A stretch of DNA of 56,083 bases, from contig JBDRKX010000102.1 of the NCBI GenBank assembly GCA_043813605.1, forward strand, positions 1 to 56,083, written 5' to 3'. The stretch is from Elusimicrobiota bacterium. GTDB taxonomy: Bacteria; CG03; SLGR01; JBDRKX01. The notes beneath the pieces are model-generated. The model was given only the letters and a program-made list of their open reading frames with translations. It did no database searches and had not been told where the DNA came from. This document shows, piece after piece, positions 4,977-54,228 of this stretch; the stretch's first letter is position 1; each line of letters starts with the position of its first letter. The position numbers and the translations under genes are program-made.

Positions 4977-5009
4977 AATAGGTCTTATATATATAGTATA
5001 ATACTTTTT

Positions 5010-5053
5010 TGTGAAATATGTGTGAAATATGTGTGAAATATATGTAAAATTAA
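5010..5053 (-). promoter_or_regulatory. Four tandem 11-bp direct repeats (tgtgaaatatg x2, tgtgaaatata, tgtaaaattaa) upstream of small ORF A
   Basis: Exact 11-bp phasing is read directly from the sequence. On the coding strand each unit contains a -35-like TTCACA/TTTACA. The same motif family occurs at 25270-25321, 54229-54250 and 55859-55880. Confidence 0.55.
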
Positions 5054-20000: not shown

Positions 20001-23000
20001 ATGAAATTACTACCGTCTTCCGTTATGTATATGTTATCTTCATGAAAATCACCGTGTACAATGCCCGCTTTGTGCATCGCAATAATAACTTCTTTTAGCC
20101 TGTTCAGGAGTTCTTTCGAGAGCGGTTTGTCGTATTCGCCAAGCGGTACTCCGGCAGCTTTTTTCATATAATAGCCTTCTACCTGCCCGTTCTCTCCGTA
20201 TTTAAAGGCCAGTGGTTCCGCTATATGTTCAGGGAACATCTTGTGCATAGCTTTTAAAGCATCAAACTCAGCTACTATATCCCTGTATGAGTTCCCGAAC
20301 CGGAGGGGTGTTGTCCTCATAGCAGCGGACTTAAAAAAGACATCCGGCCTGTTTTCAAGATCAGCTTCATCTATGGGTACTTTAGCCAGCGCTTCTTCCG
20401 TCTTGGTTCTGGTCTCTCTCAATGCCTGCAGTTTTTCCTCGTTTAAACTGATAGTATTCTTTATCCGGTCTATATCAAAAAGCAGTTTTCTCTTAGCCTC
20501 TTCGTTTTCAACGGCTTTTTTATACTCGGCATCCAGTATCTGAACAGCTTTGTCAAAATTGCGTTTCTTGGCGTTTTTCTTGATCGCCCCGATAATATTA
20601 TCAAGCTCGGTTTGAGCTTTCGCATATTCAAGGGTACCCCGTTTATCCTGGGCGGACAGGATAGGACTATTTTTAGCTCTCCAGTACATGATATATAACT
20701 GGATACTATCTTTATTCAATCCGTCTTCAATCGCCTGCACCTTTTCCAATTCTTCCTCAGCTTTTTTAAGTTCTGCCTCGGAGGTTGCTTTTTCATCTGT
20801 GCTGTTCTTTTCATTTATATCGAGTATCCGGTTGATATTTCCATAAAGTCCGGCTGTAGCAAGCCCGTTCTGTTCAGCCAGGTTATACTGCCCGAGTGCT
20901 GCCTCTGTATTTCCCTGCTTCTCCCAGGAACGGCCCGATCCTAAATGTGCGCGCTGCTTTAATGCGTTCTTCAGATTTTTATCAGCAACCTGATCGGCAA
21001 GCTGGATCGCTTCTTCATATTTTTTCCTTGCGTAGAGGTTATCATCATTCTCAAGAAAAGCATCACCTTCGTTGAGGAGTATTCCAGCCGGATTTTCCGG
21101 ATTCTTGATCAATCCGAGTTCTCCTGATATTGCGCTGATAGGTTTTTTTCCCACACCGATACGCTTAAGTATCCGTTCAAGTTCATTATAACTTGTGACA
21201 GTTCTGCCTTTCAGCGCCTGGATAACCTGGGCTTTCATCTTCTGTTTAAGCCCTTTGTTGTCAAGTTTTCCAGCAAGCTCTTTTTCTACCTTTATATCGT
21301 TCATTATCCTGTCGAGCTGTGCAAGGTACCCGTTGATATTCGATTTATTCCACTGTCTTACCGGTTCAAGGAATTTTTCAAGAGGAACATTAAGGTCAAC
21401 CGGGTTCTTGAGATATTCTTCTATTATCGCCTGCCTGATCCTTGCAGGCATCTTCACAAACTCTTCGGCAGCGGCTATGCCGGCAAATATCTCTTCCAGT
21501 TTTTTTATGAACTGACCGGCATTTTCATATTTACCCTGCATGCGGGCGGCCTGATATATATCGTTTATAATAGACTCTATTACTGATTTAGATATACCGG
21601 CATCACCCAGCGCCTTGCGTATCCTGTCCAGTTCGTTCACTACGGCTTTAGGAACAACAGCCGCCTCTTCTGCGGAAGCTACAGAAGGCTCTAACTTTGA
21701 TCTCACAGATGCTACGGTATTATCGGCTGTACCCGCCGGGATCTCCCGGAGCAGTTCCATAAGGTCGTTAAACCTTTCTTCAAGGACCTTTTCCCTTTCA
21801 TTAAGCTGTTTTGATGTCCTTAATGCATTCCAGGCCTGACCCATTCCGTTCATATATCCGGCATTCTTCGACAGGGTTTCGAGTTCCATCACCAGCTTAT
21901 TCAGCCTGTCAGTGTATTCTTTCTCTGAAACCTGTTTAGGAGCTTCCGCTTCTTCCGTAACCGCTTCTTCACGCGCTGCCGCCGGTATCATTGCTGTTTT
22001 CTGGTCATTCTGCCAGATAAAGAAAAGTGATACGGCGCCGAGTATGGCGATCGAACCGGCTACCATAGGGCCGGACAATATTGCAGCTATTACCGCAGCT
22101 ATACTCACCCCGCCGATAGCTATCGCATACCTGTATTTGTTTATCAGTCCGCTCACTCCAAGGCGCGCCTTAGGCCTGCGGGTTGTCTCGGCAGCGGTTT
22201 CAGGTTCAGCTGTAATACCTGCGACTTCTTTACCGGAAACTAACCGGGCAAACTGTTCATGTTCCTGTTCATTCGGCACGTCCGGCAATCCCCGGCCTTC
22301 TCCCTGTGTATGCTGGGCCTGTATCCTGTTCCTGCTGTCCCGGGCCATACTGATTGATATACCGCCCCGGGCGTCAACAACCTCTTTTTCAGTGTACCCT
22401 TCGAGCGCCTTTATGCGCCAGTCGTTGTTCTCTATAAGACTCCTGAGATACCCGTCCAGGTCCTTTTCGAACATGTCAGCGTCTTCCCGTAACAGATAAG
22501 AGTTCTTGAGCTTTTTCAGTGTCTCTTCGGTATTGTATACAAAATGGGTATTGCCGACTGATACCAGTTTCAGAACACCGATCATCTGCCTGTTAAGGCT
22601 TTCGAGCCATCCATTGAATGCCGCGATATCTACCTGACCTTTTTCAGAGGAAACCTGAGCCATGGGATAAAGACCGGTTATAGCCTTTTTAACATTAAGG
22701 AAATTCTTTATCCGGAGACTGAGTTTGTAAGGATTGTTCTTGAGTGTATTTATGCCTGCGGCGACCCTGTTCCATCTTGCCTTGTGTATTATCGCCTTTG
22801 CTTCCTCTTCAGGTACTATCTTGATCTTACCCGAACGGTTTATACCCAGCATAACGAGTTTTCCGGCCAGATTCATGTAAGTGTATGCGTATCCGTCCTG
22901 GAACACCTTGTCTTCCGGGTAGAAATTATACTTTTCTCCCGCTGTCTTTAAACTGATATACCCTTTGCTCCATTCACGGCCAAAAGCCATTACTCTGTCA

Positions 23001-24652
23001 AGTAAAGTGACATTGAAACCCGATTGCTTGAGCTGATCCCGCATCGCTTTTCCTATTTCCCTTATGACGATCCTGTCAAGGAACCAGTCCTGGCCCAGGA
23101 AGAAGGATATGAGCGCAAGCGTCTGAGGAAGTACATCCTCATAACTCAGCACCGTATCACCGCGCATGAGCTGGTAATACCTTTTTGTCACCGTCTCATC
23201 ATGAGATGTGACCCTGGGCGCCACTATCGTATAATTGATAGCTTTTTCTTTCAGATGCCTTGCAACACCTTCCGAATGGAATCCTCCGGTTACCATCACG
23301 ATGTTCTTGTCCCGCCTGGAACGCTTTATAACGAAATTATCGACAAACCTCACATCCCTCTCGCATGCCATTGAATAAAAAACGCCCATTTCCTCGATAT
23401 AGGGTTTCAATGCAGACAAAAGGTCGTCTATACCGCCCATCTCCTCGTTATTTTTGAACATAAGCGCATTATAGGACCTTTCAAACTCATCTGCCCCTTC
23501 ATAGAACACATCCAGTTCTTCCCGTGTTATCTGGTTGAGAAGGAATTTTATCAGCGTCTGCACATAGTCAAGCACGTATACAAGGTCTTTTTCCGCCTGA
23601 TTCCCGCAAAGCCCGCTACAGACGGTCTTTATCACTTTATCTTCTTCAGTGAGCAATTTGTTCGTGTTTATCTGTTTGGAAAGCTCGATATTGTCGAAAA
23701 AACCGGCAAGTGTCGAATAATTCCTGTCCAGACGGGCTTTCTCATATATCTTTTCACGCCTGGATGTTGGAGTAGAAGACATGTGTTTCATTATCCTGAC
23801 TGTACCCGTATCCCCGGAATCTTTCTCATAATCCAGGTAGTTCAGAGTCTTCATAAGGTTGTCGTATTCTTTTACGATCTTCTCATCATCCAGGTCATGC
23901 CTGTTTTCAGTGAGTTTCATGAATTTGGCGTATTCGGTCGAAATACTGTTTATGGATTTTCCGGTCCGGTCAGCCCACTCTTTAAGGTACTTCAAGAAGA
24001 CATGAGGGCTGAGATTTCTCTGTTTATAAAGTATGTAATGGCTCCTGAATTTTTTGAGGTCGTTTGAGAATACCCTGTCTTCTACCATTTTCAGCAGGTA
24101 TTTTATCCTCTGAAGGTATTCCACTACCTGTTCGCGGTTGTTCAGTGATGAGAGAAGGACATCGCGGTTTTTGTCGTAGAGCTCACTGTCTTCTATACCA
24201 TAAACAGGAGGAGAGTTCTTTTTAAGCGCAGCAAACCCCTCTGCACCCTTTATCAGGCCGTTTTTCATGAAGAAATCGACTGATTCCTCCTTGCGGCTTG
24301 CGTTCGGTATAGACGATACTATGGAAAAATCTATCTTCTTGTCACTGGGACTGCCTTCAAGGCCTATTTTGCTGATACCGTAATTTGTGTCTATGTGCTC
24401 GAGTATACCGCTGATGTTTTTTTGTACTTCGAAATTCGCATGCAGGTCCTGAATAAGTATCACCATCGGGTATTTGTCACCGGCATTGAACCTTTCAACA
24501 ACCTGACCGCATTCAAACGGTACATCTATCTCATCTGAAGTTTCTATCTCTATACGGGCATAGGCATAATCATTCAGCACGAATACGGTCAAAAAGGATG
24601 TGACCAGTATCCAGCTCGTTATTTTAGTGATTATGTTGTCTAAAATCTTCAT
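5060..24652 (-). CDS. Giant multi-domain membrane protein 2 (6,530 aa), carrying many unrelated enzyme-like domains
   Basis: Uninterrupted 19,593-nt ORF with an N-terminal hydrophobic anchor (ITSWILVTSFLTVFVL). Several internal TM clusters and recognisable catalytic motifs are listed as separate features. The TAA stop (5060-5062) overlaps by 1 nt an upstream in-frame ATG of the small ORF A frame. Confidence 0.9.
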   Translation of the reverse strand: MKILDNIITKITSWILVTSFLTVFVLNDYAYARIEIETSDEIDVPFECGQVVERFNAGDKYPMVILIQDLHANFEVQKNISGILEHIDTNYGISKIGLEGSPSDKKIDFSIVSSIPNASRKEESVDFFMKNGLIKGAEGFAALKKNSPPVYGIEDSELYDKNRDVLLSSLNNREQVVEYLQRIKYLLKMVEDRVFSNDLKKFRSHYILYKQRNLSPHVFLKYLKEWADRTGKSINSISTEYAKFMKLTENRHDLDDEKIVKEYDNLMKTLNYLDYEKDSGDTGTVRIMKHMSSTPTSRREKIYEKARLDRNYSTLAGFFDNIELSKQINTNKLLTEEDKVIKTVCSGLCGNQAEKDLVYVLDYVQTLIKFLLNQITREELDVFYEGADEFERSYNALMFKNNEEMGGIDDLLSALKPYIEEMGVFYSMACERDVRFVDNFVIKRSRRDKNIVMVTGGFHSEGVARHLKEKAINYTIVAPRVTSHDETVTKRYYQLMRGDTVLSYEDVLPQTLALISFFLGQDWFLDRIVIREIGKAMRDQLKQSGFNVTLLDRVMAFGREWSKGYISLKTAGEKYNFYPEDKVFQDGYAYTYMNLAGKLVMLGINRSGKIKIVPEEEAKAIIHKARWNRVAAGINTLKNNPYKLSLRIKNFLNVKKAITGLYPMAQVSSEKGQVDIAAFNGWLESLNRQMIGVLKLVSVGNTHFVYNTEETLKKLKNSYLLREDADMFEKDLDGYLRSLIENNDWRIKALEGYTEKEVVDARGGISISMARDSRNRIQAQHTQGEGRGLPDVPNEQEHEQFARLVSGKEVAGITAEPETAAETTRRPKARLGVSGLINKYRYAIAIGGVSIAAVIAAILSGPMVAGSIAILGAVSLFFIWQNDQKTAMIPAAAREEAVTEEAEAPKQVSEKEYTDRLNKLVMELETLSKNAGYMNGMGQAWNALRTSKQLNEREKVLEERFNDLMELLREIPAGTADNTVASVRSKLEPSVASAEEAAVVPKAVVNELDRIRKALGDAGISKSVIESIINDIYQAARMQGKYENAGQFIKKLEEIFAGIAAAEEFVKMPARIRQAIIEEYLKNPVDLNVPLEKFLEPVRQWNKSNINGYLAQLDRIMNDIKVEKELAGKLDNKGLKQKMKAQVIQALKGRTVTSYNELERILKRIGVGKKPISAISGELGLIKNPENPAGILLNEGDAFLENDDNLYARKKYEEAIQLADQVADKNLKNALKQRAHLGSGRSWEKQGNTEAALGQYNLAEQNGLATAGLYGNINRILDINEKNSTDEKATSEAELKKAEEELEKVQAIEDGLNKDSIQLYIMYWRAKNSPILSAQDKRGTLEYAKAQTELDNIIGAIKKNAKKRNFDKAVQILDAEYKKAVENEEAKRKLLFDIDRIKNTISLNEEKLQALRETRTKTEEALAKVPIDEADLENRPDVFFKSAAMRTTPLRFGNSYRDIVAEFDALKAMHKMFPEHIAEPLAFKYGENGQVEGYYMKKAAGVPLGEYDKPLSKELLNRLKEVIIAMHKAGIVHGDFHEDNIYITEDGSNFMILDPVGYPLPGGKAHEGFMKSTFKKAVNDRDYGDLAGLNRILVRAGEKPVPVETIEVAKAEKAPKAVLTQTQIDNLTTVNAVLEQAEQALENDDLAAARKNFNLARNMVPNIRRMDQARDEVIGALSRLSRMRDQLTQKTVGVYKAKAEPKSDQFEKNIRAALPKSLKRTVKDDVVNALIGATPDQVSSFEKLNGLLSPIKGAGPKTIDAVAKALQLVKPSAEEILSETPDEEIISQLDEIPEEVRDLRVTEAAREAGKPVRSVGDALETTVGEMIDAYKTGGMQGVKELAEKAAGGVVIPGTAVLKKALELNRIPDNHPLKKIFENILNDTGKARQFDNSPASRLHMFLSELNTEDDMSLDALINALTSLDDSPDLSTLINNVRINDISLSQGMFKELEDYKGTLLSKKPDGDIDDIDNAMKTMGRRTGEEEKKLDGLIKNNQSRWMRESKGTPESSDRITVGHEGSQRTFSVTIRVISDRNLPEGIESLRFTGVDAESNRKVLVVVTRAPPESDIAQEAVFHEKQEAAWTAYLMKEAGLKGAKEIIHQSHILASADQVIKYGGINSLTPFHQQQVDDMQISQLQAIISEKPQDRQKHHDLVKQYLGEAAFNMVADYEDYVQAVINAKVKIVRPKPLAGMSTVDKVRRIAEGDEFSPESLLNALKEAFPEVESLYSEQVTWDNTLERHTLMLLGQFEKYFRGMEFPAGVDTGLFRLILALHDIGKPKALVEGTDEHEETARMMREMLGKLGYSSSQIAVAENLIDGESIGIVLKDSGKIDRAASIIRRGAQKAGIAAAAYFELSAIFFMCDAGSYTMDAGATEKGADDLFSFNPKEGRMWFSDITSINFRELESVIKDGSEIRLEEKLLEALVSGKTGKPAKKAKIISREMVSLPDMDRIQYNSILEYHIEESQKATSINENMEKWARNMPKDFDQLLEMFQETGNINALQALSQMMKGDGSRFKAYMDMMNSMLPKIKYIIAMKQQLGLDLASMFKAEWSAAVPGINGVTGGIVTMDTEQLIENLFFRTINDPLFRVLRYTSKQLAGKDILKNLRDDIYAEKIVNSPRDVPTIYRVMTREEFEIAKRLVQKNENRGITNEQSCFSGTPLRNKVIARYGQQDMLLVRIKGSGVYFHKGAEEKEVLIFHVEQIEEEQVLDDADVARAVEIDDKEVFAARAPISGLPPVPVGASVGALKRIGVRTAEDAAKLTQARAMEKEWAERASGVEKRVIKGEEITARLLVVDDNELPEGYWAHNFRDSSGNLVIVTGSRYQDESIFHESREAFWMEQLKGSGETPEDIQQIAHILASAEQVLRFGFTPGSAVPVITPNHVAQLNDPAMTQDMLKSIIGETDRSFQHGMISRYLTKIHGKDVLSRINAYESLVKITAHEKIINTQVDAFGFRYAPTPDNPQYNTIFNAEGEELAEIRFSETEDTFEVSDLFGYFAYQAPGKARLASIIRNYIRSLISLASDRGKSRFKAVKVVGTEIPRVLRIAVSDGLLKNVIVKDSKIGEIPLAEYLRSEEYKQTVENKTLFLEEISGDIVSERVAQLKAAAEKAVSILAEERLTSYSIVDGAHELHLNSEERDGKTIYQSGLVFNTEMIFGSLEKDEAIGSGGFMSCTGIVIQGRNRDTGKTEYAVAHVYPDNFGTDIAEVMNRLDNISIEKIGIFPTNESRGEDDGNYKQNNESVRTLLFELAKYGRAGNIKGVYVRRGNTAIKTLDVTVSEIILREAGFIKYKILSWDDDALWNSGLIMDIVNVPRTPAEMFETDRSIEREAQPVREIASAYETIEKTALKTPSAVPEKPTAGSRISRILNSFGSIFMANFAASSIIAALLTSDLVLAIRTLYYKGLLSQPWEIYDTTIRGSDMFNVGLPLLMGSIVAVLSILTVTLLGRRFNGIISGVGKWGAPTLITAMLLIGPMKLLANPGLYFDTVSKGDSQVTVIDATVSEKMRLENIVNNFPEEYTSDLRSILYVPRLQKVDANGNIVEDNGIHIPVHIHQIIRSLSARDLGSKDEFYECTIRHEIGHNVFWNVLTDTQKQAWIELSGRSKDMNDFVSNYAKTNYNEDFAETFMYFTTEPLGFASMAIGSDILLEKLMLMANLMIKDGVLKVYDRNGNFKEAKVSLVDGKLTSENLFEALTGVFYDEEMEGTERIDSKEVAHLEVEAGRTEAKASADVSAVSGRVVNLSDSPDTFTIDNTKPTYILVHGASDYTPETMKHIVDTARALGVNIVEFSYYWLNPIDDISGKFNRELAAFIESKGIENVTIVLHSYGTNVIRNAVLNDESGLYRNASVVELTPTIGGNESAANTSGGFRQALMKIISALGFRDYSNVSAVQDYNGTIQTRLFSKEAVSEFAGKIAGLKQVFIRGDSFNPDANSDARYQQLFNNGLGDNVVYLAPTTDDPHMEVLERDDVMNTIFKGITPTARIGSILNQITAPLGYNELMATRPELVGLTNGMTKPEYEKLQADKEIQKAMKEIVEFMYSVDPERAQELLGHAKHFVILDIPFQAMAFYEAGIIIIGKNHLENIRQDRSFAANVILVLAHEAKHIEDYNIGIMGDHSTLRVRAMEEERAYIETVTWMKKLAALGYGTQEEVDVQQFVTDHIKDNNYTGIVARMVTVDPSEDPETVVMKVIALADAAGYLAEIMGVSVDDLEFAAARVCTGGQPGEGMKLITSAVIFTEFTSKGVLHFATITKDGDVTVSTEQVGILEHVSRILDEDYSFENRQIFINSLIELAKTDKNAFGLLDNVRSGLTGIMDKLRGLNDEDSRYEYNAAERLLGILNEAMSEIRNALAPGEWSDAGAVGVISGIITALRRRREEEEKEPVTPDNEMRAFLSELGIEDKYHKDILANYKNINELRERAHIIQDIIDALQSATGIPDFTLSEWGQSSLQSTLLRRNDILSSGIQKGFEPAVFLNTMLLDLPNLTEPEIAGIRYLSSLLDVTRLRYNWKKGNNKWTFQAGINRGHDKAYRMENAMEIPDFLAVQEDLLSEDGTNLIPVIMNMIFDHVFDMNAGNIFGPIDFKAEKGSPDSRPAFFMFNETMYRDGDGNIVTDEYGRVRGRWPRRDPRITLIVTSEQRAILEPLIAEMFLGPVELREGKPFGVHHIVDFMVLDEGDIANLGRNVSITMHDGKVEVNEKTFDLSDNRPFDYDLGEWEAEPVSMPDKGMIAVPIGVGSFGRTTGAALNTSMYVAIRNADGSLTKILIDPHAEADRVLQARGLPTDVDYIIISHNHPDHIEGMLSGAQRGVQVIVEQGMVRKSMETILEQASKKSKLMTGQDLRKNVIFAEMNEDGKTIELPGGTKVILQMVEHSIPTAAIRIEAPKNVGGGVFVMASDIYNAETGILEEITIDDKGEEKVVLKKEKATDIVDFLFVGVDKLFIDAKKGDPVHQDVAKLVKAAGAHYGRTTDDITKNMLGIHYQDENDRQMTGLEPVSVGEVVKIGDPVFNGKAPVDSLVLANALENGYLNPIQKRQIRNLLKGKRGIFGRKSIEKSYKGEKLITQETIINKAFFIRKGSVRIIDEKTGKEIAIAGPGDIVGLSALSEKGVETNATVIAMTNIEYTPVYPGDLTKNVKKILLNTWKNQKHIADSTLFRSLPDNIRTLIASLVMEDSFQPGEDIIKENTTGDFIYILVEGSAQVLKKDEAGEDKYVANVELNDYFGEIALLNQDAVRTATVRAGSEGARIIAIHRGYFDAIYRKYPLVKSVIARTMQDRRIVVSEPAAETAPVKKAGILKPAVVAGLGIFAGILTFLGNVGTSVAAEIVMRGSQVLAVVKPGNSLWRIARQYLEGIGIDSPTNQQIANFVKEIISNNPKVALNPELIQPGQELLMKTVEPVKQAVQTIIDTAGPVAEPLKEQVVGKLTAAVPENLDLVVRDAAENVISAAQSIVEPSGLDNLITMMQTFVNSNYVWLAGAFALVIAGIIALGVWRNYRARKEAVKPAEEPVVSEKREVTEEEMGLPEMLAEMGMKADVIESLLASMSPEDRTGFRQQISSIIEVIEKSSDSDAARALTVRSLNLAVDNPRILPVLGKFFNLAATTPSINEDLIKHLGNLGAVFAFNKTQTGLEINPYIHEVIANTIEIPGVLGTLNTIANIINEYMSEERKPINLSDINNFFAELVGLDNLMNIGAKVLSTGITITDNIGPLVELDAIIELDGNIYIVEIKNADIKRFNNYVVKGTSAKYISKIAKIEKALVSEAGFSQLAGFIGKANVDKIVSQPVNILLAIPQQTALRGLNEDERSLDNVKEVFSGKDKRPIHSIISRLYRLSPEALVWLKGIIGDGVDTAISEWLRTFTNKSPPDIGMLRLPQTYQTVDAKEPIEYKHPYEFSFFISPQFDIFSTYNTDSVADRIISPREIEDIAPKAPAPVAEAAPEEKIPEIGSTRMTPGEIDAAIEEIRNIPLLDSNGNVMRDNIILKLEKYGQLGADMLKDIDGLNAQEFTDYDTEFVRSAAVALRVDIDEKDFVSIEGLAGILSVIAGKAAELIVFNGLVVSEFDPARTVDTGSAMDRLAGVDLPVVSEGNHIGDWKAGMTAFQENFTRYEEVYRQVLRPALFNQLSRMSQIDSGRLQERFHMSAENWAEFVYDFTLAFNFSGIYTGDTVNEPVLLSAFAGVYHGYTGSYTRDYHNWVDDMVKMGVSDRDAMRIVDEMAQEASVEKTRAFDTSAGDFAVKWDEMAAREPAVTTTGGNIWQRLISSVKRIPENFSEKSLLAAQLGIEELRTGEKTSYADGVLTINQATYRKIIELLDRSKDMNITVNVLRAMIAGYSSQNLHLTEYLEDYMEELAPHMTDIEAIALPIWFNTVFSFNKVKAGEEEISQFVALVMNLPEGQEMPEKALRIIEEVGRINMKFLGQKQIEDVPTSAGMVEVTEEKTLELKLKSGVRQLVMAISRLGKAVVTMPVTIVEMGLSGNKRWDAVAAAAFMGGGRVSILDLLDRHMRILTGRQLEPDESIIPNLNKVAGVFTAT
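5063..5790 (-). other. C-terminal ~230-aa domain shared with giant 1
   Basis: Giant 2 vs giant 1: GVLTINQATYRKIIELL vs GKLTVRSDIYEAIQEL; EAIALPIWFNTV vs EKIVLPVWFSWV; ALRIIEEVGRINMKFLGQ vs LGEVIETAERINEGFLGE; AVAAAAFMGGGRVSILDLLDRHM vs NTIAAYAFGNGGSIIDQLKASM; ESIIPNLNKV vs NDIVPNNLIESV. Confidence 0.65.
8476..8665 (-). other. LysM-like domain in a loop bounded by TM helices (TMs at about 8700-8785 and 8180-8250)
   Basis: LAVVKPGNSLWRIARQYLEGIGIDSPTNQQIANFVKEIISNNPKVALNPELIQPGQELLM fits the LysM pattern (V.pGdtLw.IA..y ... N ... l.pGq.L). Flanking TMs are AVVAGLGIFAGILTFLGNVG and YVWLAGAFALVIAGIIALGVW. Confidence 0.5.
8866..9200 (-). other. Cyclic-nucleotide-binding (CAP/cNMP) domain 2
   Basis: FQPGEDIIKENTTGDFIYILVEGSAQVLKKD...YFGEIALLNQDAVRTATVRAGSEGARIIAI carries the canonical FGE[IL]ALL ... 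RTATV.A signature. Confidence 0.75.
9262..9545 (-). other. Cyclic-nucleotide-binding-like domain 1 (more divergent)
   Basis: YKGEKLITQETIINKAFFIRKGSVRIIDEKTGKEIAIAGPGDIVGLSALSEKGVETNATVIAMTNIEY has the same beta-roll layout (G.GD.vG..AL ... atviA.t). Confidence 0.55.
9720..10480 (-). other. Metallo-beta-lactamase-fold domain
   Basis: KILIDPHAEADRVLQARGLPTDVDYIIISHNHPDHIEGML; the HxHxDH motif is encoded at 10262-10279. Confidence 0.7.
12300..12420 (-). other. Second HExxH zincin-like motif
   Basis: ANVILVLAHEAKHIEDYNIGIMGDHSTLRVRAMEEERAY: HEAKH with downstream acidic residues. A single motif only. Confidence 0.35.
12990..13420 (-). other. Alpha/beta-hydrolase (lipase/esterase-like) domain
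   Basis: KPTYILVHGASDYTPETMKHIV...ENVTIVLHSYGTNVIRNAVL...VELTPTIGGNE. The nucleophile-elbow-like HSYGT Ser codon is at 13172-13174. Confidence 0.55.
13760..13960 (-). other. Zinc metallopeptidase-like domain (HExxH + EDFAE)
   Basis: ECTIRHEIGHNVFWNVL (HEIGH encoded at 13904-13918) and NYNEDFAETFMYF (13769-13792). This pairing is typical of small zincin families. Confidence 0.6.
16040..16300 (-). other. Unassigned module, copy 2 (LPEG...IVTG...FHExxEAxW...AHILASAEQV)
   Basis: ITARLLVVDDNELPEGYWAHNFRDSSGNLVIVTGSRYQDESIFHESREAFWMEQL...IAHILASAEQVLRFG is paralogous to 18290-18620. Confidence 0.5.
16545..16790 (-). other. Possible ADP-ribosyltransferase-like R-S-E region
   Basis: TIYRVMTREEF ... 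SCFSGTPL ... GAEEKEVLIF spaced about 30 and 37 aa apart. This resembles the Arg / S-x-S / ExE[VIL]L layout of R-S-E ARTs. Weak, motif only. Confidence 0.25.
17550..17950 (-). other. HD-domain phosphohydrolase-like region
   Basis: LERHTLMLLGQFEKYF...LFRLILALHDIGKPKALVEGTDEHEETARMMREML...FFMCDAGS. The HD codons are at 17831-17836. Confidence 0.6.
18290..18620 (-). other. Unassigned module, copy 1 (LPEG...VVTR...FHExxEAxW...SHILASADQV)
   Basis: VTIRVISDRNLPEGIESLRFTGVDAESNRKVLVVVTRAPPESDIAQEAVFHEKQEAAWTAYL...HQSHILASADQVIKYG. Confidence 0.5.
19965..20345 (-). other. Protein-kinase-like (RIO/Kdo/APH-type) domain
   Basis: AMHKAGIVHGDFHEDNIYITEDGSNFMILDPVG: HGDxxxxN catalytic loop (HGD at 20048-20056) plus a DP metal-binding position. 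The N-lobe is poorly recognisable. Confidence 0.5.
23030..24652 (-). other. N-terminal module shared with giant 3
   Basis: See the alignment given for feature 2750..4379. Confidence 0.7.
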
Positions 24653-24660
24653 TTATTCAT

Positions 24661-24704
24661 AAAAAAAACCCGCACTCTGCTCATCTCTAAACAAAGTGCG
24701 GGTT
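24661..24704 (-). terminator. Conserved hairpin + T8, copy B, between small ORF B and giant 2
   Basis: Same 10-bp stem as copy A (AACCCGCACT / AGTGCGGGTT); the loop differs at 2 nt. The TAG stop of small ORF B (24687-24689) lies in the loop. The T8 run ends only 8 nt before the giant 2 ATG (24652). Confidence 0.7.
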
Positions 24705-25241
24705 AATTACTCGGGCATTAGATGCCCGCCCGTACATCAAAATTGGATTTATATCATACTTATCTGCCAGATTTTGGATACATTTATCCACAGGTGTGAT
24801 AAACTTAAGCCGCCATCTGGAATAATACTGAAAATCATCATCGGGAGGCCTGCACCTCCGTTTCAGATAGTCGGTAAAACTCTTTAAACAAACACTGACT
24901 GCAGCCAGTATCCCTATCAAAAAGACAAGGAACATTGACTCTTTGGAAGCAAAAAGCGCTCCACCCATGATAAGGAAAAGGAAATTGAATATTTTTCTCG
25001 AATCCTTATCGTTTGAATCTCCCGCTCTATTACTCGTTTCCTGTACACTGCCGGTAGCGGCTCCTTTGACACATCCATTGACTTCCATAACAGCGATCGA
25101 CGGATAATTCAGCGCGGTTTTCAGCAGTGAAACCGCTCCGGTAATGTTCTTCTGGATCTGAAAAGTCCCCAGAGAGGTGAAAGACAGTATTACCAATACA
25201 GTCAGTATCGACAGTATTTGTCTTTTGTTAGAGTTTTTCAT
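24687..25241 (-). CDS. Small three-TM membrane protein, paralogue B
   Basis: 184 aa with an N-terminal TM (ILSILTVLVILSFTSLG) and two central TMs. Conserved tail: QYYSRWRLKFITPVDKCIQNLADKYDINPILMYGRASNARVINPHFV. Confidence 0.8.
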   Translation of the reverse strand: MKNSNKRQILSILTVLVILSFTSLGTFQIQKNITGAVSLLKTALNYPSIAVMEVNGCVKGAATGSVQETSNRAGDSNDKDSRKIFNFLFLIMGGALFASKESMFLVFLIGILAAVSVCLKSFTDYLKRRCRPPDDDFQYYSRWRLKFITPVDKCIQNLADKYDINPILMYGRASNARVINPHFV

Positions 25242-25269: not shown

Positions 25270-25321
25270 TGTGAAATTGTGAAAAATTTGAGTACGGAAT
25301 GTAAAATGTTTGTAAAATATT
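25270..25321 (-). promoter_or_regulatory. Phased direct repeats tgtgaaat / tgtgaaaaatt / tgagtacggaa / tgtaaaatgtt / tgtaaaatatt upstream of small ORF B
   Basis: 11-bp register read directly from the sequence. Lies 29-80 nt upstream of the ATG at 25241. Confidence 0.5.
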
Positions 25322-25453: not shown

Positions 25454-25496
25454 AAAAATAGAGATCCGGACTGCCCTTTCAGGAACAGTCCGGATC
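25454..25496 (-). terminator. Rho-independent terminator after giant 1
   Basis: Minus strand reads GATCCGGACTG-(12 nt)-CAGTCCGGATC followed by TCTATTTTTGAG: a perfect 11-bp stem, 43 nt after the TAA stop of giant 1. Confidence 0.75.
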
Positions 25497-25538: not shown

Positions 25539-28500
25539 TTACGTCGAACTGAGCACGCTCTCTATCAGGTTGTTAGGCACGATATCATTGCTCGTTCCGC
25601 CGCCCAGGAACGCCGACATGGACGCTTTCAGTTGGTCGATTATAGAACCTCCATTACCGAAAGCGTAAGCCGCTATAGTGTTTATCTGTCCGCCGTTTAT
25701 CAACCCTTCGCCTGGAAGCACTCCGAACGGCATTTTCGCCGTTATATCAGCCGTCTTTGCGAATATGCTCTGGATTATACCGACTAGTTCACGCGCGCCG
25801 CCTTTTTCCTCCAGGTATTTCTTTATTCCGGCCGCTATGTAACCGTGTGAACCGGAAGGCTGGATATTCTGCAGTTCCCCGAGGAATCCTTCGTTTATCC
25901 TCTCTGCCGTCTCTATCACTTCTCCCAGCTGTTTTGCGGTCACTCCAGGCAATTTCTCGGCTATATAATCAGACAGCTCCTGTGTCGAACCGGCTGCCAG
26001 CGATTTCACCCAGCTGAACCACACTGGAAGCACTATTTTCTCCGTATCACTCATTGCAAGGCTGCCGTCAAGTTTCCCGAGTTCTTTCATGTATCCCTCT
26101 GCCGGGTTCTCGTCATACCGGTGCATCTCGTATGCAGATATTGTTGCCAGCACCTTGACGGCAAGATCAATATCCGCTGCAGCAAGCTCCTGTATAGCTT
26201 CATAAATATCGCTTCTTACGGTCAGTTTACCGGTTTCCGGGTTATAGGCAGTCACATCGCCTTTTTCTGCTCTTTCTACGCCTGTCACACCCATAACAGT
26301 AAGCTTTTCAGCCATGCCAGCCGGAAGTTCCCTTGCGATCTCTTCAATTGTTTCCGTATCCGCTAATACCGCTTCTATCTCCTTGACCTCATTTTCACCA
26401 ATATAGGCTGCCGGAAGATCGGTCTCAAGCGCTGTTGTCAGATCACCGACAGTATCTATTTCGGCATCAGTAAGTATCTGCTTGACTCCGTCTGAAAGGT
26501 CAAGATCATTAACAGATACATCCTGAACGCTCGAAACTGCCGCGACCTCACTCAAAGCTGTCTCAATTTCGCTCATCACAGTTATGCCTAATTCAAGTGA
26601 AGCAAGAACACCGTTATTTATAGCTGTTTCAAGTTCTCCGACATTGTTTATTCCCGCATCTTCAAGCTTAAGCTTGGTATCATCAGACAATGCCAGTTCC
26701 TGTACAGGTATTTTCTGTACTGCCGGTATGGATGTCAGCTCATTCAGCGCTGTTTCTATCTGACCTAACTCATTAGGACCAAGGTCTGCTATCGGGAGCG
26801 CTGTATCAAGCGAATCCTGAAGCGCTCCGGCACTTAGTATACCGGCTTCCATGAGAGTATCCTGGAGTGCAGGAGAAAGACCGAGACGGTCGACAGATAC
26901 ATTCCTCGCTGCCGCACTGAGAGGCTGCTGTGTCTGTGTTGCCGGCACATCTGCTGATGATATCCCGAGGAAACTCTTCACTTTGGATGTCAGGTTCTTC
27001 AGGCTGTCAACAACAGCGACCGTAGTCCATCCCATTGCACCGTAATCATACGCTCCCATATCAGAAGGTGTTGTCGTCTCTATTATCTCGCTGTCTTCAT
27101 AGACACCGTCTTTATCGACATCAACGACTACAACCGCATGTCCCTGGCCGGTTTCCTTGTTGAAAAGGAGTTTAATCACTGCCGACAGGCCCATATCTTT
27201 TGCCGCCAGGAAGAGCTGCACGCTCCTGTCAAGACAGTCTGTAGCAATCTGACTGGCACCTGCCGCTATACTCGACATCCTCTCGTTTATACCGGCCATT
27301 GTGGTATAGAACAGGTCCGATGTCGGAGCGTATATCTGGTTCTGGACAAAATCAACGATCTTGGCAAAAACACCTTCCGGTTCTGTGCCCTCTGTGTCTG
27401 CTGAAGGTATTGAAGCCGATATCTCAGGTACTGTCCTTTCCATTCCGAGGAGACTGTATATCTCGTCCTTTTTCTCGGCTGAAGTGACTGGTTTGTCGAG
27501 TACCGCTATTATCTGATCGATCGTATCGGGCTGTGCCGGTGCATCTATCTCAGCTATTACCGTTCCGGTAAGTGCCAGGTTCTCTGCCAGGTAATCCTGC
27601 GTCACACCTTCCATCTCAGGAAGCAGTTCCGCTACAACTTTATTCTTCACTGACACGTCCTGACCTTCGGCAACAGCCATAACAAGATCGGTGTAGGATA
27701 TCGTTCCTGTCAGGTACTGTACCAGCGGTGACTCGTTGAACGCGCTCCAGTTGCCGGCTTCAAACTCTATCGCTGCCTTGATATCAGCCTCGGTCATACC
27801 GGCTATCACAAGAGGTGAATCGGGAGCAGTAAGTATTTCCAGTACGTTTGCTGAAAGAGCCGTGCTGAGCGCTTTATAAGCGTTACTGCCTATGCTCACA
27901 GGGCCGCCTTCTGACTGTGCCCTGATCAATGCATTTATAAGTGTTTCCACTTTGACAGGTTCATCCGTATTCTCTATTATTCCCGCGTTCTGCAGCGAAT
28001 TAAGTATATGCGTTTCAACACCAGTATCAAGACCGAGAGCCTGTATGGAAGTATCTGTAAATGTTACAAGCGAACTGAATTCCGCAGGCACTGATACAGT
28101 TTCCGGTATTACTCTTTCTATACCAAGAAGACTGTATATCTCGTCCTTTTTCTCGTTTGAAGACACCGGTTTGTCGAGTACTTCTATTATCCGGCCGGCA
28201 ATTTCCGGAGTGACTCCGTCAAGTGTCGCCACAAGGTCTTCCTGTGTCACACTTCCCATCTCAGGAAGCAGTTCCGCCATAACTACATTCTTCACTGACG
28301 CGTCCTGACCTTCGGCAATAGTCATTGCAAGATCGCTGTAGGATATCGTTCCTGTCAGATACTGTACCAGCGGGGACTTATTGAACGCGCTCCAGTTACC
28401 GGCTTCAAACTCTATCGCTGCCTTGATATCAGCCTCGGTCATACCGGCTATCACAAGCGGTGAATCAGGAGCAGTAAGTATCTCCAGCACATTCACCGAG

Positions 28501-31500
28501 AGAGCCGTACTGAGCGCTTTATAAGCGTTACTGCCTATGCTCACAGGGCCGCCTTCTTCCGGTGACCTGGTTAATGCATTCATAAGCGTCTCCACTTTAA
28601 CAGGTTCATCCGTATTCTCGATTATTCCTGCATTCTGCAGCGTATTGAGTATCTTTGTCTGGACAGCAGCATCCAGTCCGAGAGCCTGTACTGTTGTAGC
28701 AGTTGTAAACGCTTCGAGCGATATCGATTCAGCGGCCGCCTGGAAGACTATTCCTGTATACGCTTCCCATACCGCCTGCTGTTCTTCGGCTGACATTGTT
28801 TCCGGAATAAGATCGGAAGCCATGAGTACCGCAAGCTTATCCTGAGGTTTACCTTTGAGTTCAGGATATGCCGCTACATTATTCAACATATCTGCCGCTC
28901 TGTCGAGACTCACAGCAACCGACTCTCCGGCATTCTCGGTAAGCATAGCGTTGACATCAGCTACGACCGGCGCCAGGCCGGATGTTATCAGGTTCTCCGT
29001 CTGTTTATCATCAAGCTTGAAGTTCTTTGTCTTCAACTCTTCGTAGAGCCTGGTGCCTTCAAGTATTGTCCTCTTTCTATCGTCATCACCTCTTAAGTTC
29101 TCTATTTTATCCAGTTTGGTATTGATAATCACAAGCCTGCTTACAGGATCCAGTCCCTGCATCATCAACATCATATTCTCTTTTTCTACAATTTCCTGTA
29201 CCACAGCGTCTACATCAATTGTCTCGGCCACCGAGTCCTCTATCTGTATATTCGATACATTCTCATCATTCATCATCTGGGTAATCTTCTTGCTGATACT
29301 TACCTTTATATCATCTGTCACATATTTTTCAGCCTGCGTTCTTATGGTTTCAGATGAACTGAAATTCAAACGCAGATTAGAAACAGATTCCTGGAAGTTA
29401 TTGGTAAGTTCGGCTTTCCTGGCTTTGCGGCTTTCATCATCTCCGCCGCCAAGACCCAACTGGATCAGCATTGCCAATATACCGTCTTTTAACACATCTT
29501 TTAATGTAGTTGTCGTTTTAAGCGACTCTTTCCTTGTTTCACTCTGACTTGCTATACTGCTGATCTTACTTTCAACTTTATCGCTGTTAAGACCGATCGT
29601 AACATCCTTCTTGTCTTCGCTGTATGTAACAGTGACAGGATCGGTAGTGGCTTCCGTAGTTGACGGCAGAACACTCCTGGAAAGCTCCTTAAATGTCTGC
29701 GCAATCTCTTTCGGATTCTTTGCGGATGCAAAAGAGAGCTCAAATTTCACGAGTATATTTCTTATCTTTTCAAGGTCGACATTTATCACCTCATAGCCCT
29801 CAGTACCTATCTCTTTTCTCATAAGTTCTCCGGTAACATCCTTGAGTTCCCTGATATTAGTTATATCCGTACCGGCTACCGCATTCTGAAGAGTACTAAT
29901 TTCTTCAGCAGTAAGACCGATAGCTTTTACTGTCTCCTCAGCTTTCTGTGTTCCAAGATCCGCTATGAGCGTATCCATCCTGCTATCGATGAGTTCCAGA
30001 TTTTTAATCCTCTCAAGCTCGGCTTTTTTCGCTATAGCCTCTGTCCTGATATCATCACTGATATTGGGTGAAGCTATTACTTTGTTCAGGATGTTAATGG
30101 AGTTATTTATGACTCCGGCCCACACTCTATTGACTCTTTCAAGAGGAGTAGTCAATTCTGAACTGTGGAGTCCGTTTTCATCAATAAGCGACCCATCCTC
30201 AACTGCAGTGTAAATAGCTCTAAGTTCTTCCTGCCCCTTGCCGGTAGATCTCTTGATCCACCCTTTCATCGGTTCCTGCACTATCCTGCCCATGGGCTCC
30301 AGACTGCCTTTATGCATTATCGAATTGGATTTTTCTATTGCTGTCCTGTAATTAGTCACAAGAGTAACAATTTCCTTTTCATCCAATACTTCCATAGCTT
30401 CTACAATATCCTCATTACTATAAAGGCCTTCGGCATTCGTTTCAGCGCCCATGTCCTCAAGAGCCGTCTGAAACTTATTCCATATTGCCCTGATATCCTT
30501 CTTGTCCGCCTCTGTAAAGAGCCCTTTGATATCTCCATCATGATCGTTCAGGAACTCTTCATACTGCATCATACCGACAAGGATATTTTCTACATTTGTA
30601 TCGCTTGTACCAATAAACCTGGCTGTTTTTGCGTTAGCCCTGCCGGTTCTTCCCAGCATCTGTGTCAGGCTGCCCCAGCCCATATTTTCTACACCTATCG
30701 CTATCTCTACAACCTGCCCCTTATAGTCATACGCTCTTGTCCCTACATCTGTTGTAAGCACGATCCTGTTTATATCCTGATCACTCTTAGTCCTGTTCTT
30801 CAAAGCTATCTTCTTCGTTATTTCACCCTGTATGTTTTCAGGCGTAGTATGCATATCGATGGTATCTATGACCCCTTCTTCGGATCTCAGCGCTTCCAGA
30901 AGAGTACTTTCCGCTTCAGTGATCGTCCCGGCTGTCTCTTTTGCGGTCAATTCATTTTCGATCTCATTTAGTTTTGTTTCTACAGCCGCCTTTAATTCAA
31001 GCAATTGCGATCCGCTTGCTACCCTCGACAGAACGCCGCTCTCGCCTATCAGATCAAGTCCAGTGGCTTTCTTTATTTGCGCAAGTTTTATTTCTTCCGT
31101 GCCGGTAAGCGTTCCGGCTTCCTCTTTGGCAAGCAGGTCTCTAAACTCGGATCTCTGTTCATCATTCATATCATTTAAGACACCTGATATTTCTCCGAGT
31201 TCAAATATTTTTCCTTGATATGCAGCTACTATCATCTCCGCAGCTTTCTTGACATCGAGATCATTTACATAATTATATGTCTTTGCCTCGAGCGAATCGA
31301 TTATCTCCACTGCCGCATTGCCGTAAATAGCGTTAGCTATAAGTTCAGCTGTATCCATACTTGCAGAACCGCCGGCTGTAAGGCTTCCCTGCGCGCTTCT
31401 GAGCTGCTCAAGCTCTACTCCCAGTTCAAACTTCCTGGTTTCAAGGTCGGCTTTCATATCGTCCATTGAACGGTTCTTTGTCTCGATATCAAACCGGGCG

Positions 31501-54200: not shown

Positions 54201-54228
54201 TATAATAATGAAATTATGCTGACTATTA

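What the first reader, a model, noticed from the sequence alone, without database searches (positions are those of the whole stretch)
24661..24704. Conserved GC hairpin + T8 directly upstream of all three giant start codons
Copies lie at 4414-4457, 24661-24704 and 53556-53598. Copies A and B have identical 10-bp stems (AACCCGCACT / AGTGCGGGTT); the copy C stem differs at its closing end on both arms and still pairs. Each is followed by T8 and sits 35, 8 and 46 nt before a giant-gene ATG. They have the form of intrinsic terminators, yet they lie between a small ORF and a very expensive downstream gene. In A and B the small-ORF stop codon lies in the loop, so a terminating ribosome would occupy the 5' arm. 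This suggests translation-dependent read-through (attenuation) or gating of giant-gene translation, since in B the hairpin nearly abuts the start codon.
Basis: partly seen in the sequence, partly recalled or inferred. Interest (0 to 1): 0.75.

Follow-up and report, generated by a model that had tools for sequence, protein, structure and literature searches.

The report
Terminator hairpin gating giant genes
A strong terminator-type RNA hairpin sits inside the last codons of a small membrane-protein gene, directly in front of each giant gene (6,500 to 9,300 codons); it is conserved at that junction in over a hundred related uncultivated bacteria, so giant-gene expression must pass through it, but nobody has measured whether it terminates.

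Summary
All genes lie on the minus strand. Three copies of ACCCGCA(C/T)...(G/A)TGCGGGT + T8 lie 34, 8 and 45 nt before the giant-gene ATGs. As minus-strand RNA they form 17-bp stems (-22 to -27 kcal/mol for the hairpin). They hold the only T8 runs in 56 kb.

The element is conserved. Fourteen junctions (3 in the window, 11 in other contigs) carry it between a ~185-aa two-helix membrane-protein ORF and a giant gene. Six of 15 stem pairs covary, and G-U pairs mark the sense RNA strand. The C-terminal tails of 82 of 111 small-ORF family representatives encode both arms and the T-run, in all nine frame combinations. So the nucleotides are selected, not the peptide.

The small ORF always covers the 5' arm. 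It usually reads through the hairpin, and its stop often overlaps the giant start (ATGA, TGATG, GTGA). A conserved promoter-like motif lies upstream of the small ORF. Gaps of 8-10 nt leave no room for a promoter after the hairpin.

Best reading: an intra-operon intrinsic terminator (attenuator) that must be read through. Read-through is probably licensed by the ribosome translating the small ORF, as at pyrBI, but constitutive leakiness is not excluded. It is a new variant of a known kind. Termination itself is untested.

The parts
24661..24704 (-). Terminator-type hairpin B: 17-bp stem including G-U pairs, 4-nt loop, then T8. It lies 8 nt before the giant B ATG.
4414..4457 (-). Terminator-type hairpin A plus T8, 34 nt before the giant A ATG. 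A purine-rich Shine-Dalgarno-like stretch lies in the gap.
53556..53598 (-). Terminator-type hairpin C plus T8, 45 nt before the giant C ATG. Its stem carries compensatory changes relative to A and B. Small ORF C translates through it.
24687..25241 (-). Small ORF B (184 aa, helical membrane protein). Its last codons INPHFV-TAG form the 5' arm and apex of hairpin B.
4440..4976 (-). Small ORF A. The start at 4976 is likely by alignment with B; the mechanical ORF extends to 5060. Its stop TAA lies at the hairpin apex.
53514..54158 (-). Small ORF C (214 aa, a paralogue of A and B). It reads through the hairpin and T8 (…GTRILNEVFGMRVFFM…) and stops 3 nt before the giant C ATG.
5060..24652 (-). Giant gene B (6530 aa).
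25539..53510 (-). Giant gene C (9323 aa). It has Peptidase_C39-like matches, long transmembrane-rich stretches and a RNA_pol_A_CTD-like match.
1..4379 (-). Giant gene A. The first 1459 codons are present and the gene runs off the window. Its N-terminal domain is homologous to that of giant B.
24713..24727 (-). Upstream small hairpin P1 (GGGCAT-cta-ATGCCC), 8 nt before terminator B and inside the small-ORF tail.
   Evidence: Read from the sequence and from the folds. Not tested statistically.
4466..4483 (-). Upstream small hairpin P1 (GGGCAT-ctatgt-ATGCCC), 8 nt before terminator A.
24649..24660 (-). Three-codon mini-ORF ATG AAT AAA TGA. It starts right after T8, and its TGA overlaps the giant B ATG (ATGA).
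   Evidence: The same arrangement occurs in L003 and L034.
25270..25318 (-). Promoter-like cluster of ATTT(T/C)ACA repeats upstream of small ORF B.
4998..5050 (-). Promoter-like cluster upstream of small ORF A: four ATTT(T/C)ACA repeats at 11-nt spacing, plus a TTCACA-17-TATTAT match.
54205..54247 (-). Promoter-like cluster (ATTTTACA, AATTTACA, …TGGTATAAT) upstream of small ORF C.
25463..25496 (-). A separate, unrelated terminator-like hairpin (14 bp, 8 G-C pairs) 43 nt after the giant C stop. It marks the end of unit C before the promoter of unit B.

Best explanation
Each unit is one operon on the minus strand. Its order is: a promoter with tandem TTT(T/C)ACA repeats; a ~185-aa membrane-protein ORF; an intrinsic-terminator hairpin with a U6-9 tract embedded in or overlapping the last codons of that ORF; then the giant gene, 8-45 nt further on.

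The hairpin acts on the nascent sense RNA as an intra-operon terminator (attenuator). RNA polymerase must read through it for the giant gene to be made, so the element caps or gates transcription of a 20-28-kb gene.

The most likely mode is ribosome licensing, which is inferred and not shown. The small ORF always covers the 5' arm and usually the whole hairpin. A ribosome following the polymerase closely would therefore keep the 5' arm unpaired and suppress termination, as at the E. coli pyrBI attenuator. The same ribosome, or one restarting at the conserved AUG after the U-tract, is then delivered to the giant start codon. That delivery works through stop/start overlap or a short gap. Untranslated or uncoupled transcripts would end at the U-tract.
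For: Anatomy:
- 17-bp G+C-cored stems followed directly by T8. They are stable only as minus-strand RNA.
- They contain the only T8 runs in the window.

Conservation at the same junction:
- The element is present in all 8 close relatives that have upstream sequence with a small ORF (L001-L005, L032, L034, L035).
- It is also present in 3 loci sampled independently through the small ORF (L080-L082). The covariance model recovers L080 and L081 at 65 and 57 bits although they were not used to build it.
- On 13 sequences, 98.4 % of cells pair, 6 of 15 pairs change on both sides, and 0 of 500 shuffles reach the covariation score. Slid controls pair in 27-52 % of cells.
- Several G-U pairs would be A-C mismatches on the other strand.

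Nucleotide-level rather than protein-level selection:
- 80-82 of 111 small-ORF family representatives (each under 50 % identical to the others) have tails that encode the 5' arm, the 3' arm and the T-run.
- The signatures are NPHF / TRTL / KPAL ... AGFF / RVFF / CGFF, in all 9 frame combinations.
- Controls: 4 of 2220 shuffled tails and 0 of 111 N-terminal segments match.
- The AlphaFold model of the tail is disordered (pLDDT about 46).

Position inside an operon:
- The T-run-to-start gap is 8-10 nt with no Shine-Dalgarno sequence in window B, L003, L004, L032 and L035.
- The small-ORF stop overlaps the giant start in L003, L004, L005, L032, L035, L081 and L082, and also in the distant L023.
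- A conserved promoter-like repeat motif lies upstream of the small ORFs.

Link to translation:
- The ORF covers the whole 5' arm in 14 of 14 junctions.
- About 18 strong terminator-like sites elsewhere in the same loci lie 7-69 nt beyond the nearest long-ORF stop.

Precedent:
- In E. coli, terminators placed a few bp after a stop codon, or late in a coding region, are repressed by the translating ribosome (PMC4824070).
- The pyrBI attenuator needs tight coupling across its leader ORF (PMC5021804, citing Roland et al. 1988).
Against: - There are no transcript data. Termination, read-through fraction and ribosome dependence are all inferred.
- No conserved antiterminator or other sensing structure was found, and no input signal is identified.
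- The giant-gene sense strands are 57-59 % purine. That is higher than the 54 % of B. subtilis and fits the signature of runaway transcription (PMC13323073). In such organisms ribosomes lag behind the polymerase, and terminators overlapping ORF ends work regardless of translation.
- The rule that the stop is never upstream of the apex has a neutral explanation. Stops upstream would truncate the conserved protein, and loops are free to mutate.
- L001 and L002 have 92-138-nt AT-rich spacers after the T-run that could hold a separate promoter.
- In L080 the downstream giant-like gene is on the opposite strand.
Confidence: 0.55

Rival explanations
1. Constitutive leaky terminator. The hairpin terminates a fixed majority of transcripts whether or not the small ORF is translated, because the polymerase runs ahead of the ribosomes. 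It simply sets a high ratio of small protein to giant protein. The stop/start overlaps only ensure that the rare read-through transcripts are translated.
For: - The terminator anatomy, conservation and operon position are the same as for the best explanation.
- The strong sense-strand purine bias of the giant genes fits the runaway-transcription signature (PMC13323073).
- No antiterminator structure was found.
- There is precedent in the partial terminator between rplL and rpoB (PMC4324240).
Against: - It gives no reason why the ORF should cover the 5' arm in 14 of 14 junctions and read through in 11 of 14, when ordinary terminators in the same loci sit 7-69 nt after stops.
- A 17-bp stem with U8 would be expected to be a very efficient terminator. 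The giant gene would then be nearly silent unless something relieves termination.
Confidence: 0.27
2. Mainly a translational gate. A stable hairpin 8-10 nt upstream of a start codon without a Shine-Dalgarno sequence blocks independent ribosome loading. Only ribosomes that have translated and melted through the small ORF, or that load on the U-tract and its AUG, reach the giant start. The U-tract would serve as an S1/standby site rather than a termination signal.
For: - The short-gap junctions lack a Shine-Dalgarno sequence and have stop/start overlaps or a relay mini-ORF. The longer-gap junctions have AAGGAG-like boxes.
- An AUG directly after the U-tract is conserved across the family, seen as FFM / FFY-G.. 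/ FFL-C.. signatures.
Against: - A conserved U6-9 run abutting a G+C-rich stem base is the specific signature of termination.
- In junctions with 20-138-nt gaps and their own Shine-Dalgarno sequence, the hairpin cannot occlude the start, yet it is equally conserved.
- This reading is compatible with the best explanation and may add to it.
Confidence: 0.08
3. Factor-dependent antitermination or processing site. A protein, or an RNase, recognises the conserved P1 plus ACCCGCA/UGCGGGU hairpin to allow read-through or to cut the transcript. The hairpin would then stabilise the small-ORF mRNA 3' end or the giant mRNA 5' end.
For: - The stem base CCCG/CGGG is invariant or nearly invariant, beyond what pairing alone requires.
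- A second small hairpin, P1, lies 6-9 nt upstream in most A/B-type junctions.
- A single-domain response regulator lies upstream in the window and in L001.
Against: - No RNA-binding regulator is encoded in the units.
- P1 is weak or absent in the C-type junctions and in L005.
- G+C-rich stem bases next to the U-tract are expected for any strong terminator.
- There is no Rfam match.
Confidence: 0.07
4. Ordinary end-of-operon terminator of the small ORF, with the giant gene transcribed from its own promoter downstream. Alternatively, a dispersed repeat or mobile element that happens to lie there.
For: L001, L002 and L033 have 90-140-nt AT-rich spacers after the T-run.
Against: - Gaps of 8-10 nt cannot hold a promoter.
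- Stop/start overlaps show co-translation on one mRNA.
- The covariance model finds no copy anywhere else in the window or in 460 kb of related loci.
- All copies lie at the same junction and in the same orientation.
Confidence: 0.03

Closest known systems
E. coli pyrBI (pyrL) attenuator: ribosome-mediated suppression of an intrinsic terminator
   Same: An ORF upstream of the structural gene is translated across an intrinsic terminator that lies a few tens of nt before the structural gene's start. A ribosome close behind the polymerase prevents hairpin formation (PMC5021804, citing Roland, Liu and Turnbough 1988).
   Different: - Here the 'leader' is a conserved ~185-aa membrane protein family with 112 representatives, not a 44-codon peptide.
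- Its stop often overlaps the downstream start codon.
- No UTP-sensitive pause region or other input signal was identified.
- The downstream gene is 20-28 kb.
- Function is untested.
Partial terminator (attenuator) between rplL and rpoB in the rplKAJL-rpoBC cluster
   Same: An intra-operon intrinsic terminator that lowers transcription of large, costly downstream genes relative to the upstream gene (PMC4324240).
   Different: That attenuator lies in an intergenic spacer after the stop codon. It is not translated through and is not coupled to the downstream start codon.
Position effect of ribosomes on Rho-independent terminators (Li et al. 2016)
   Same: It shows experimentally that a terminator placed within a few bp of a stop codon, or in the late part of a coding region, is repressed by the translating ribosome (PMC4824070). 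That is exactly the geometry found here.
   Different: It used synthetic constructs with lambda tR2 in E. coli. It is not a natural conserved element, and the carrier organisms here may not couple transcription and translation.
Giant genes of Omnitrophota and related uncultivated bacteria (West-Roberts et al. 2023 preprint)
   Same: Giant ORFs with N-terminal C39-peptidase-like domains and transmembrane regions, as in giant C (10.1101/2023.11.21.568195).
   Different: The terms 'terminator' and 'hairpin' do not occur in the main text of that paper. The window's relatives are metagenome-assembled genomes (MAGs) labelled Elusimicrobiota, Sumerlaeota and others.

Membership tests
Rho-independent (intrinsic) transcription terminator | Stable G+C-rich stem-loop in the nascent RNA | tested here: met
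   17-bp stems; hairpins alone -22 to -27 kcal/mol; z = -6 to -8.6 for the 71-nt folds. Covariation is seen across 13 loci.
Rho-independent (intrinsic) transcription terminator | Run of U directly 3' of the stem, on the transcribed sense strand | tested here: met
   T8 in all three window copies and T6-T9 in 11 other loci. G-U pairs make the stem sense-strand specific.
Rho-independent (intrinsic) transcription terminator | RNA 3' ends or transcript release at the U-tract | not testable with these tools
   No transcript data are available.
Ribosome-mediated attenuator of the pyrBI type | Upstream ORF translated into or through the terminator hairpin | tested here: met
   The ORF covers the whole 5' arm in 14 of 14 junctions and reads through the hairpin and T-run in 11 of 14. 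About 80 of 111 family tails encode both arms.
Ribosome-mediated attenuator of the pyrBI type | Terminator lies between the promoter and the regulated gene on one transcript | tested here: met
   Gaps of 8-10 nt, stop/start overlaps, and a conserved promoter-like motif upstream of the small ORF. This rests on sequence evidence only.
Ribosome-mediated attenuator of the pyrBI type | Read-through depends on ribosome-polymerase coupling and responds to a signal (NTP-sensitive pausing in pyrBI) | not testable with these tools
   No signal was identified. The purine bias raises doubt about coupling in this organism.
trp/his-type attenuator with alternative antiterminator hairpin | Conserved alternative pairing that sequesters the terminator 5' arm | tested here: not met
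   Folding the upstream 70 nt plus the 5' arm gives inconsistent, weak pairings across 11 loci.
Any curated Rfam family | Match at or above the gathering score | tested here: not met
   0 matches in the window. Only sub-threshold chance hits to sRNA families appear at E = 0.07-0.3.
Translationally coupled gene pair | Stop codon of the upstream ORF overlaps or abuts the downstream start codon | tested here: inconclusive
   Met in L003, L004, L005, L032, L035, L081, L082 and L023 (ATGA, TGATG, GTGA). In the window, C has a 3-nt gap, B is coupled only through a 3-codon mini-ORF, and A is not coupled.
Dispersed repeat (REP/MITE-like) | Many copies at unrelated positions | tested here: not met
   The covariance model finds copies only at small-ORF/giant junctions.

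The most novel reading that the evidence does not exclude
The junction is a transcription-translation coupling checkpoint specific to giant genes. Only polymerases with a ribosome directly behind them pass the terminator. That ribosome is then handed to the giant start codon by stop/start overlap or by the conserved AUG after the U-tract. Every polymerase that commits to a 20-28-kb transcript would therefore start with a lead ribosome. The conserved small membrane protein would double as the 'leader peptide'.
Probability: 0.3. Interest if true: 0.75.

Novelty: new variant of a known kind. Interest (0 to 1): 0.55.

Why it matters
How bacteria transcribe and translate 20-85-kb genes without premature termination or waste is an open question. 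The one giant-gene paper read here contains neither 'terminator' nor 'hairpin' in its main text. This element is a compact, testable control point. It is conserved in front of giant genes in more than a hundred lineages of uncultivated bacteria. Its conservation in all three reading frames is an unusually clean case of an RNA signal overriding a protein's C-terminus.

If read-through is ribosome-licensed, it would be a natural example of a coupling checkpoint. If not, it is still a family-wide attenuator that sets giant-gene dosage. It is also a practical sequence marker (small ORF tail plus hairpin plus U-tract) for finding giant-gene starts in fragmented metagenomes.

Tried and rejected
- Plus-strand reading. 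The element was first read on the plus strand, as the finding's coordinates suggest. There it is only a 10-bp stem with no T-run after it, so this reading was rejected. The genes are on the minus strand.
- Word-index protein searches found no relatives of the small ORF apart from the window's own protein and few with a profile. Only the exhaustive profile search showed the family.
- Pfam gave nothing for the small ORFs.
- Rfam gave nothing, either at gathering scores or on a local E-value scan.
- No consistent antiterminator was found.
- Programmed frameshift or slippage on the T-run that would fuse the small ORF to the giant ORF was checked by hand on L003 and L004. Both alternative frames hit stops, so this was rejected.
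- A promoter or 5'-terminal stabiliser placed just before the hairpin was rejected. No conserved -10-like box lies at a fixed distance (alignment).
- ANTAR-type dual hexaloop. The P1 loops are 3-6 nt without the A..G pattern, so this was rejected by reading.
- The small ORFs upstream of distant (about 24 % identity) giant-domain homologues in Elusimicrobia and Endomicrobia also carry a terminator over their 3' end. They are not detectably homologous to the window's small ORF. This counts as analogy, not membership.
- A MAFFT alignment of the P1 hairpins came out of register, so P1 covariation was not quantified.
- L082 had to be left out of the pair count for the same reason.
- No fold search was run on the small-protein model because its pTM is 0.36.

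Full report
**1. What is in the window**

All long ORFs lie on the minus strand. Read in the direction of transcription, the order is:
- a 371-aa gene (55809-54694);
- a single-domain response regulator (54662-54252; Pfam Response_reg);
- small ORF C (54158-53514), hairpin C, then giant C (53510-25539; 9323 aa);
- an unrelated terminator-like hairpin 43 nt after the giant C stop (25496-25463);
- small ORF B (25241-24687), hairpin B, then giant B (24652-5060; 6530 aa);
- small ORF A (about 4976-4440), hairpin A, then giant A (4379 onwards, running off the window).

The three small ORFs are paralogues: 40 % and 28 % identity to B, with a shared YYxxWxLKFxTPxD motif. The N-terminal domains of giants A and B are homologous.

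**2.

The three copies lie at the stated coordinates.
- As minus-strand RNA, each folds into a 17-bp stem: a 10-bp G+C-rich core extended by A-U and G-U pairs, with a 3-4-nt loop. The stem is followed directly by U8.
- The 71-nt segments fold at -28.4 to -33 kcal/mol, against -9 to -14 for shuffles. The z-scores are -6.0 to -8.6, and 0 of 200 shuffles fold as well.
- The opposite strand keeps only the 10-bp core, at about -17 kcal/mol. The hairpins alone give -22 to -27 kcal/mol.
- GCGGGTTTTTTTT occurs exactly three times. These are the only runs of eight or more T on either strand of the 56-kb window.
- Gaps from the T-run to the giant ATG are 34, 8 and 45 nt.
- In A and B the small-ORF stop lies at the stem apex, with the peptide ending …INPHFV*. 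In C the ORF is in another frame and reads through the hairpin and T8 (…GTRILNEVFGMRVFFMSIEESKLYTKAV*). It stops 3 nt before the giant C ATG.

**3. It is conserved at the same junction elsewhere**

The first 500 aa of giant B have relatives at 40-54 % identity in metagenome-assembled genomes (MAGs) and metagenomic contigs. These are labelled Elusimicrobiota, Sumerlaeota and 'Deltaproteobacteria'.
- Every close relative with enough upstream sequence containing a small ORF carries the same hairpin plus T6-T9. These are L001-L005, L032, L034 and L035. The hairpin lies between a 186-233-aa small ORF (complete in six of them; L002 and L032 are cut by the contig end) and the giant start.
- Three loci were reached independently through the small ORF (L080-L082), and they carry it too. 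L081 is an orthologue of unit C, and L082 is of the A/B type.
- A covariance model built from 11 sites finds L080 and L081, which were not in the model, at 65 and 57 bits. It finds no other copy in the window or in about 460 kb of related loci.
- On 13 sequences, 98.4 % of cells form standard pairs. Six of 15 pairs show changes on both sides, for example CCCGCAC/GUGCGGG to CCCGUGU/ACACGGG, CCGCGC/GCGCGG and CCCGUAC/GUACGGG. None of 500 shuffles reaches the covariation score, and slid controls pair in only 27-52 % of cells.
- Frequent U-G pairs in the upper stem would be mismatches on the other strand. So the selected structure is the sense RNA.

**4. The nucleotides are conserved, not the peptide**

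An exhaustive profile search finds 112 proteins at E <= 0.001 (111 besides the window's own small ORF B); each represents a cluster at 50 % identity. Nearly all are 150-230 aa long.
- Their C-terminal tails carry a recurring double signature: NPHF…AGFF(Y), TRTL…RVFF(M) and KPAL…CGFF(L).
- These are the three reading frames of A-ACC-CGC-ACT-TT … GTG-CGG-GTT-TTT-TT.
- Eighty to 82 of the 111 tails encode both arms and the T-run, in all nine combinations of 5'-arm and 3'-arm frame. Thirteen more tails end within 8 residues of the 5'-arm signature. Several of the remaining 18 show variant forms.
- Controls are clean: 4 of 2220 shuffled tails and 0 of 111 N-terminal segments match.
- In the AlphaFold model of small ORF B, the helical membrane core ends near residue 161. 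The tail encoded by P1 and the hairpin has pLDDT of about 46.
- This evidence is inferred from protein sequences, because DNA for most family members could not be fetched.

**5. The hairpin lies inside an operon**

- Upstream of every small ORF examined there is a distinctive promoter-like region. It has two to four ATTT(T/C)ACA repeats, often 11 nt apart, followed by a GTATAAT/GTATACT box. This holds for the window units A, B and C and for L001, L003, L004, L005, L034, L035, L081 and L082. L080 has TTTGACA repeats instead.
- Ten of the 12 exact window matches lie in four such clusters.
- After the T-run the gap to the giant start is only 8-10 nt, with no Shine-Dalgarno sequence, in window B, L003, L004, L032 and L035. 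It is 18-45 nt, with an AAGGAG-like box in all but L082, in window A and C, L005, L034, L081 and L082.
- The small-ORF stop overlaps the giant start (ATGA, TGATG or GTGA) in L003, L004, L005, L032, L035, L081 and L082.
- Where the small ORF stops at the hairpin apex, a mini-ORF starts at the AUG right after the U-tract. It ends on the giant start (window B, L034) or 10 nt before it (window A).
- So the giant gene is co-transcribed with, and often translationally coupled to, the small ORF. The polymerase has to pass the hairpin.

**6. How the geometry compares with other terminators**

- In a crude scan of the same loci, about 18 strong terminator-like sites that are not at these junctions lie 7-69 nt beyond the nearest long-ORF stop. 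All junction sites are overlapped by the small ORF. A few other hits lie inside long open frames that may be spurious.
- Distant homologues of the giant N-terminal domain (about 24 % identity) in Elusimicrobia and Endomicrobia MAGs show the same layout. A 160-210-aa membrane ORF has a terminator-like hairpin over its 3' end and is followed by an ORF that is open for more than 700 aa (over 1,000 in five) before the contig ends in six of the seven; in L019 it is a 493-aa ORF. These loci are L010, L014, L018, L019, L023, L024 and L025; L023 has an ATGA overlap.
- Terminator-like sites occur within -200 to +20 of the start in 19 of 76 loci, against 4.5 hits expected from background density.
- Those small ORFs are not detectably homologous to the window's. 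This is analogy, not membership.

**7. Mechanism**

Shown by sequence and comparison:
- a selected sense-strand RNA hairpin with a U-tract;
- its placement within an operon;
- overlap with the end of a translated ORF;
- its position immediately before a giant gene.

Inferred:
- It terminates transcription. The anatomy is the defining signature, but no 3' ends were observed.
- Read-through is needed for giant-gene expression.

The likeliest mode is that the ribosome translating the small ORF occupies the 5' arm when the polymerase reaches the U-tract, and so suppresses termination. This has been shown for pyrBI (PMC5021804, citing Roland et al. 1988). It has also been shown for terminators placed near stop codons or late in coding regions in E. 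coli (PMC4824070). By my own knowledge of expressome structures, a collided ribosome's P site can come within roughly 30-35 nt of the polymerase active site. With the polymerase at the end of U8, that places the ribosome on the 5' arm. This step is inference.

Points against the ribosome-licensing mode:
- No conserved antiterminator was found, and no input signal is known.
- The giant genes are 57-59 % purine on the sense strand. This trait is reported for lineages with runaway transcription, where ribosomes lag behind the polymerase (PMC13323073).

For these reasons a constitutive leaky terminator, as between rplL and rpoB (PMC4324240), remains a serious rival. A translational-gate role for the hairpin in the short-gap junctions is compatible with either mode.

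**8. Comparison with known systems, and novelty**

- The element meets the sequence criteria of an intrinsic terminator. It also has the geometric criteria of a pyrBI-type attenuator.
- It fails the criterion of a trp-type alternative hairpin, and it matches no Rfam family.
- It differs from pyrBI in three ways. The translated 'leader' is a conserved ~185-aa membrane protein. Stop/start overlap with the downstream gene is frequent. The association is with giant genes.
- In the giant-gene preprint read here, the terms 'terminator' and 'hairpin' do not occur in the main text.
- I rate it a new variant of a known kind. The anatomy and conservation are solid, the function is untested, and interest is moderate to good.

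Noticed in passing
window 5010-5050, 25270-25318, 54229-54247 and 55859-55877 (minus strand); also upstream of the small ORFs in L001, L003, L004, L005, L034, L035, L081, L082: Tandem ATTT(T/C)ACA repeats, often exactly 11 nt apart, are followed by a GTATAAT/GTATACT box. Ten of the 12 window matches fall in four clusters, against 5 matches expected overall. One cluster precedes the 371-aa gene. This looks like a conserved promoter or regulator-binding array for these units.
   Followed up: partly
window 4411-4413, 24658-24660, 53553-53555; most small-ORF family tails: An ATG directly follows the T-run in all three window copies and in most of the family (tail signatures FFM, FFY+G.., FFL+C..). 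Where the small ORF stops in the hairpin, this ATG opens a mini-ORF. That mini-ORF ends on the giant start in window B and L034, and 10 nt before it in window A. It may be a relay start codon. This is unexplained.
   Followed up: partly
L001 2021-2158, L002 150-241, L033 1-172: Some relatives have a 90-140-nt AT-rich spacer between the T-run and the giant start. It is filled with short direct repeats (CGACTA…, AATCACTAAAT…, GTGAATAG…). These could be binding sites or a second promoter.
   Followed up: no
window 25463-25496 (minus strand): A separate strong terminator-like hairpin (14 bp, 8 G-C pairs) lies 43 nt after the giant C stop. No such site follows the giant B stop, where the promoter-like repeats of unit A begin within 10 nt.
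   Followed up: partly
window 5060-53510 (giants B and C): The sense strand is 57-59 % purine, against 51-54 % in the small ORFs. Giant C has no T>=6 run in 28 kb and giant B has five, with none of T>=7. This fits avoidance of Rho or of intrinsic termination signals inside the giant genes.
   Followed up: partly
window 25539-53510: Giant C has two matched Peptidase_C39-like stretches, and its translation shows further similar repeats. It also has long Ala/Gly-rich transmembrane stretches, a helicase/SecA-like segment seen by eye, and a RNA_pol_A_CTD-like match near the C-terminus. It resembles the giant proteins described from Omnitrophota.
   Followed up: no
L080 4893-7604: In this Logan contig the small ORF and hairpin are followed by a C39-containing giant-like gene on the opposite strand. 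This is either a real inversion or an assembly chimera.
   Followed up: no
window 4466-4483, 24713-24727; L001-L004, L032, L034, L035: A second small hairpin (P1) lies 6-9 nt upstream of the terminator. Its arms differ between loci but still pair (GGGCAT/ATGCCC, GGTGTA/TACGCC, GGCGTC/GACGCC). It is weak or absent in C-type junctions and in L005. It was not tested statistically.
   Followed up: partly
L010, L014, L018, L019, L023, L024, L025: Distant Elusimicrobia and Endomicrobia homologues of the giant N-terminal domain have a non-homologous 160-210-aa membrane ORF upstream, with a shared …(R/K)G(S/N)(L/I)P… motif. A terminator overlaps its 3' end. The same architecture recurs with a different small protein.
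   Followed up: partly
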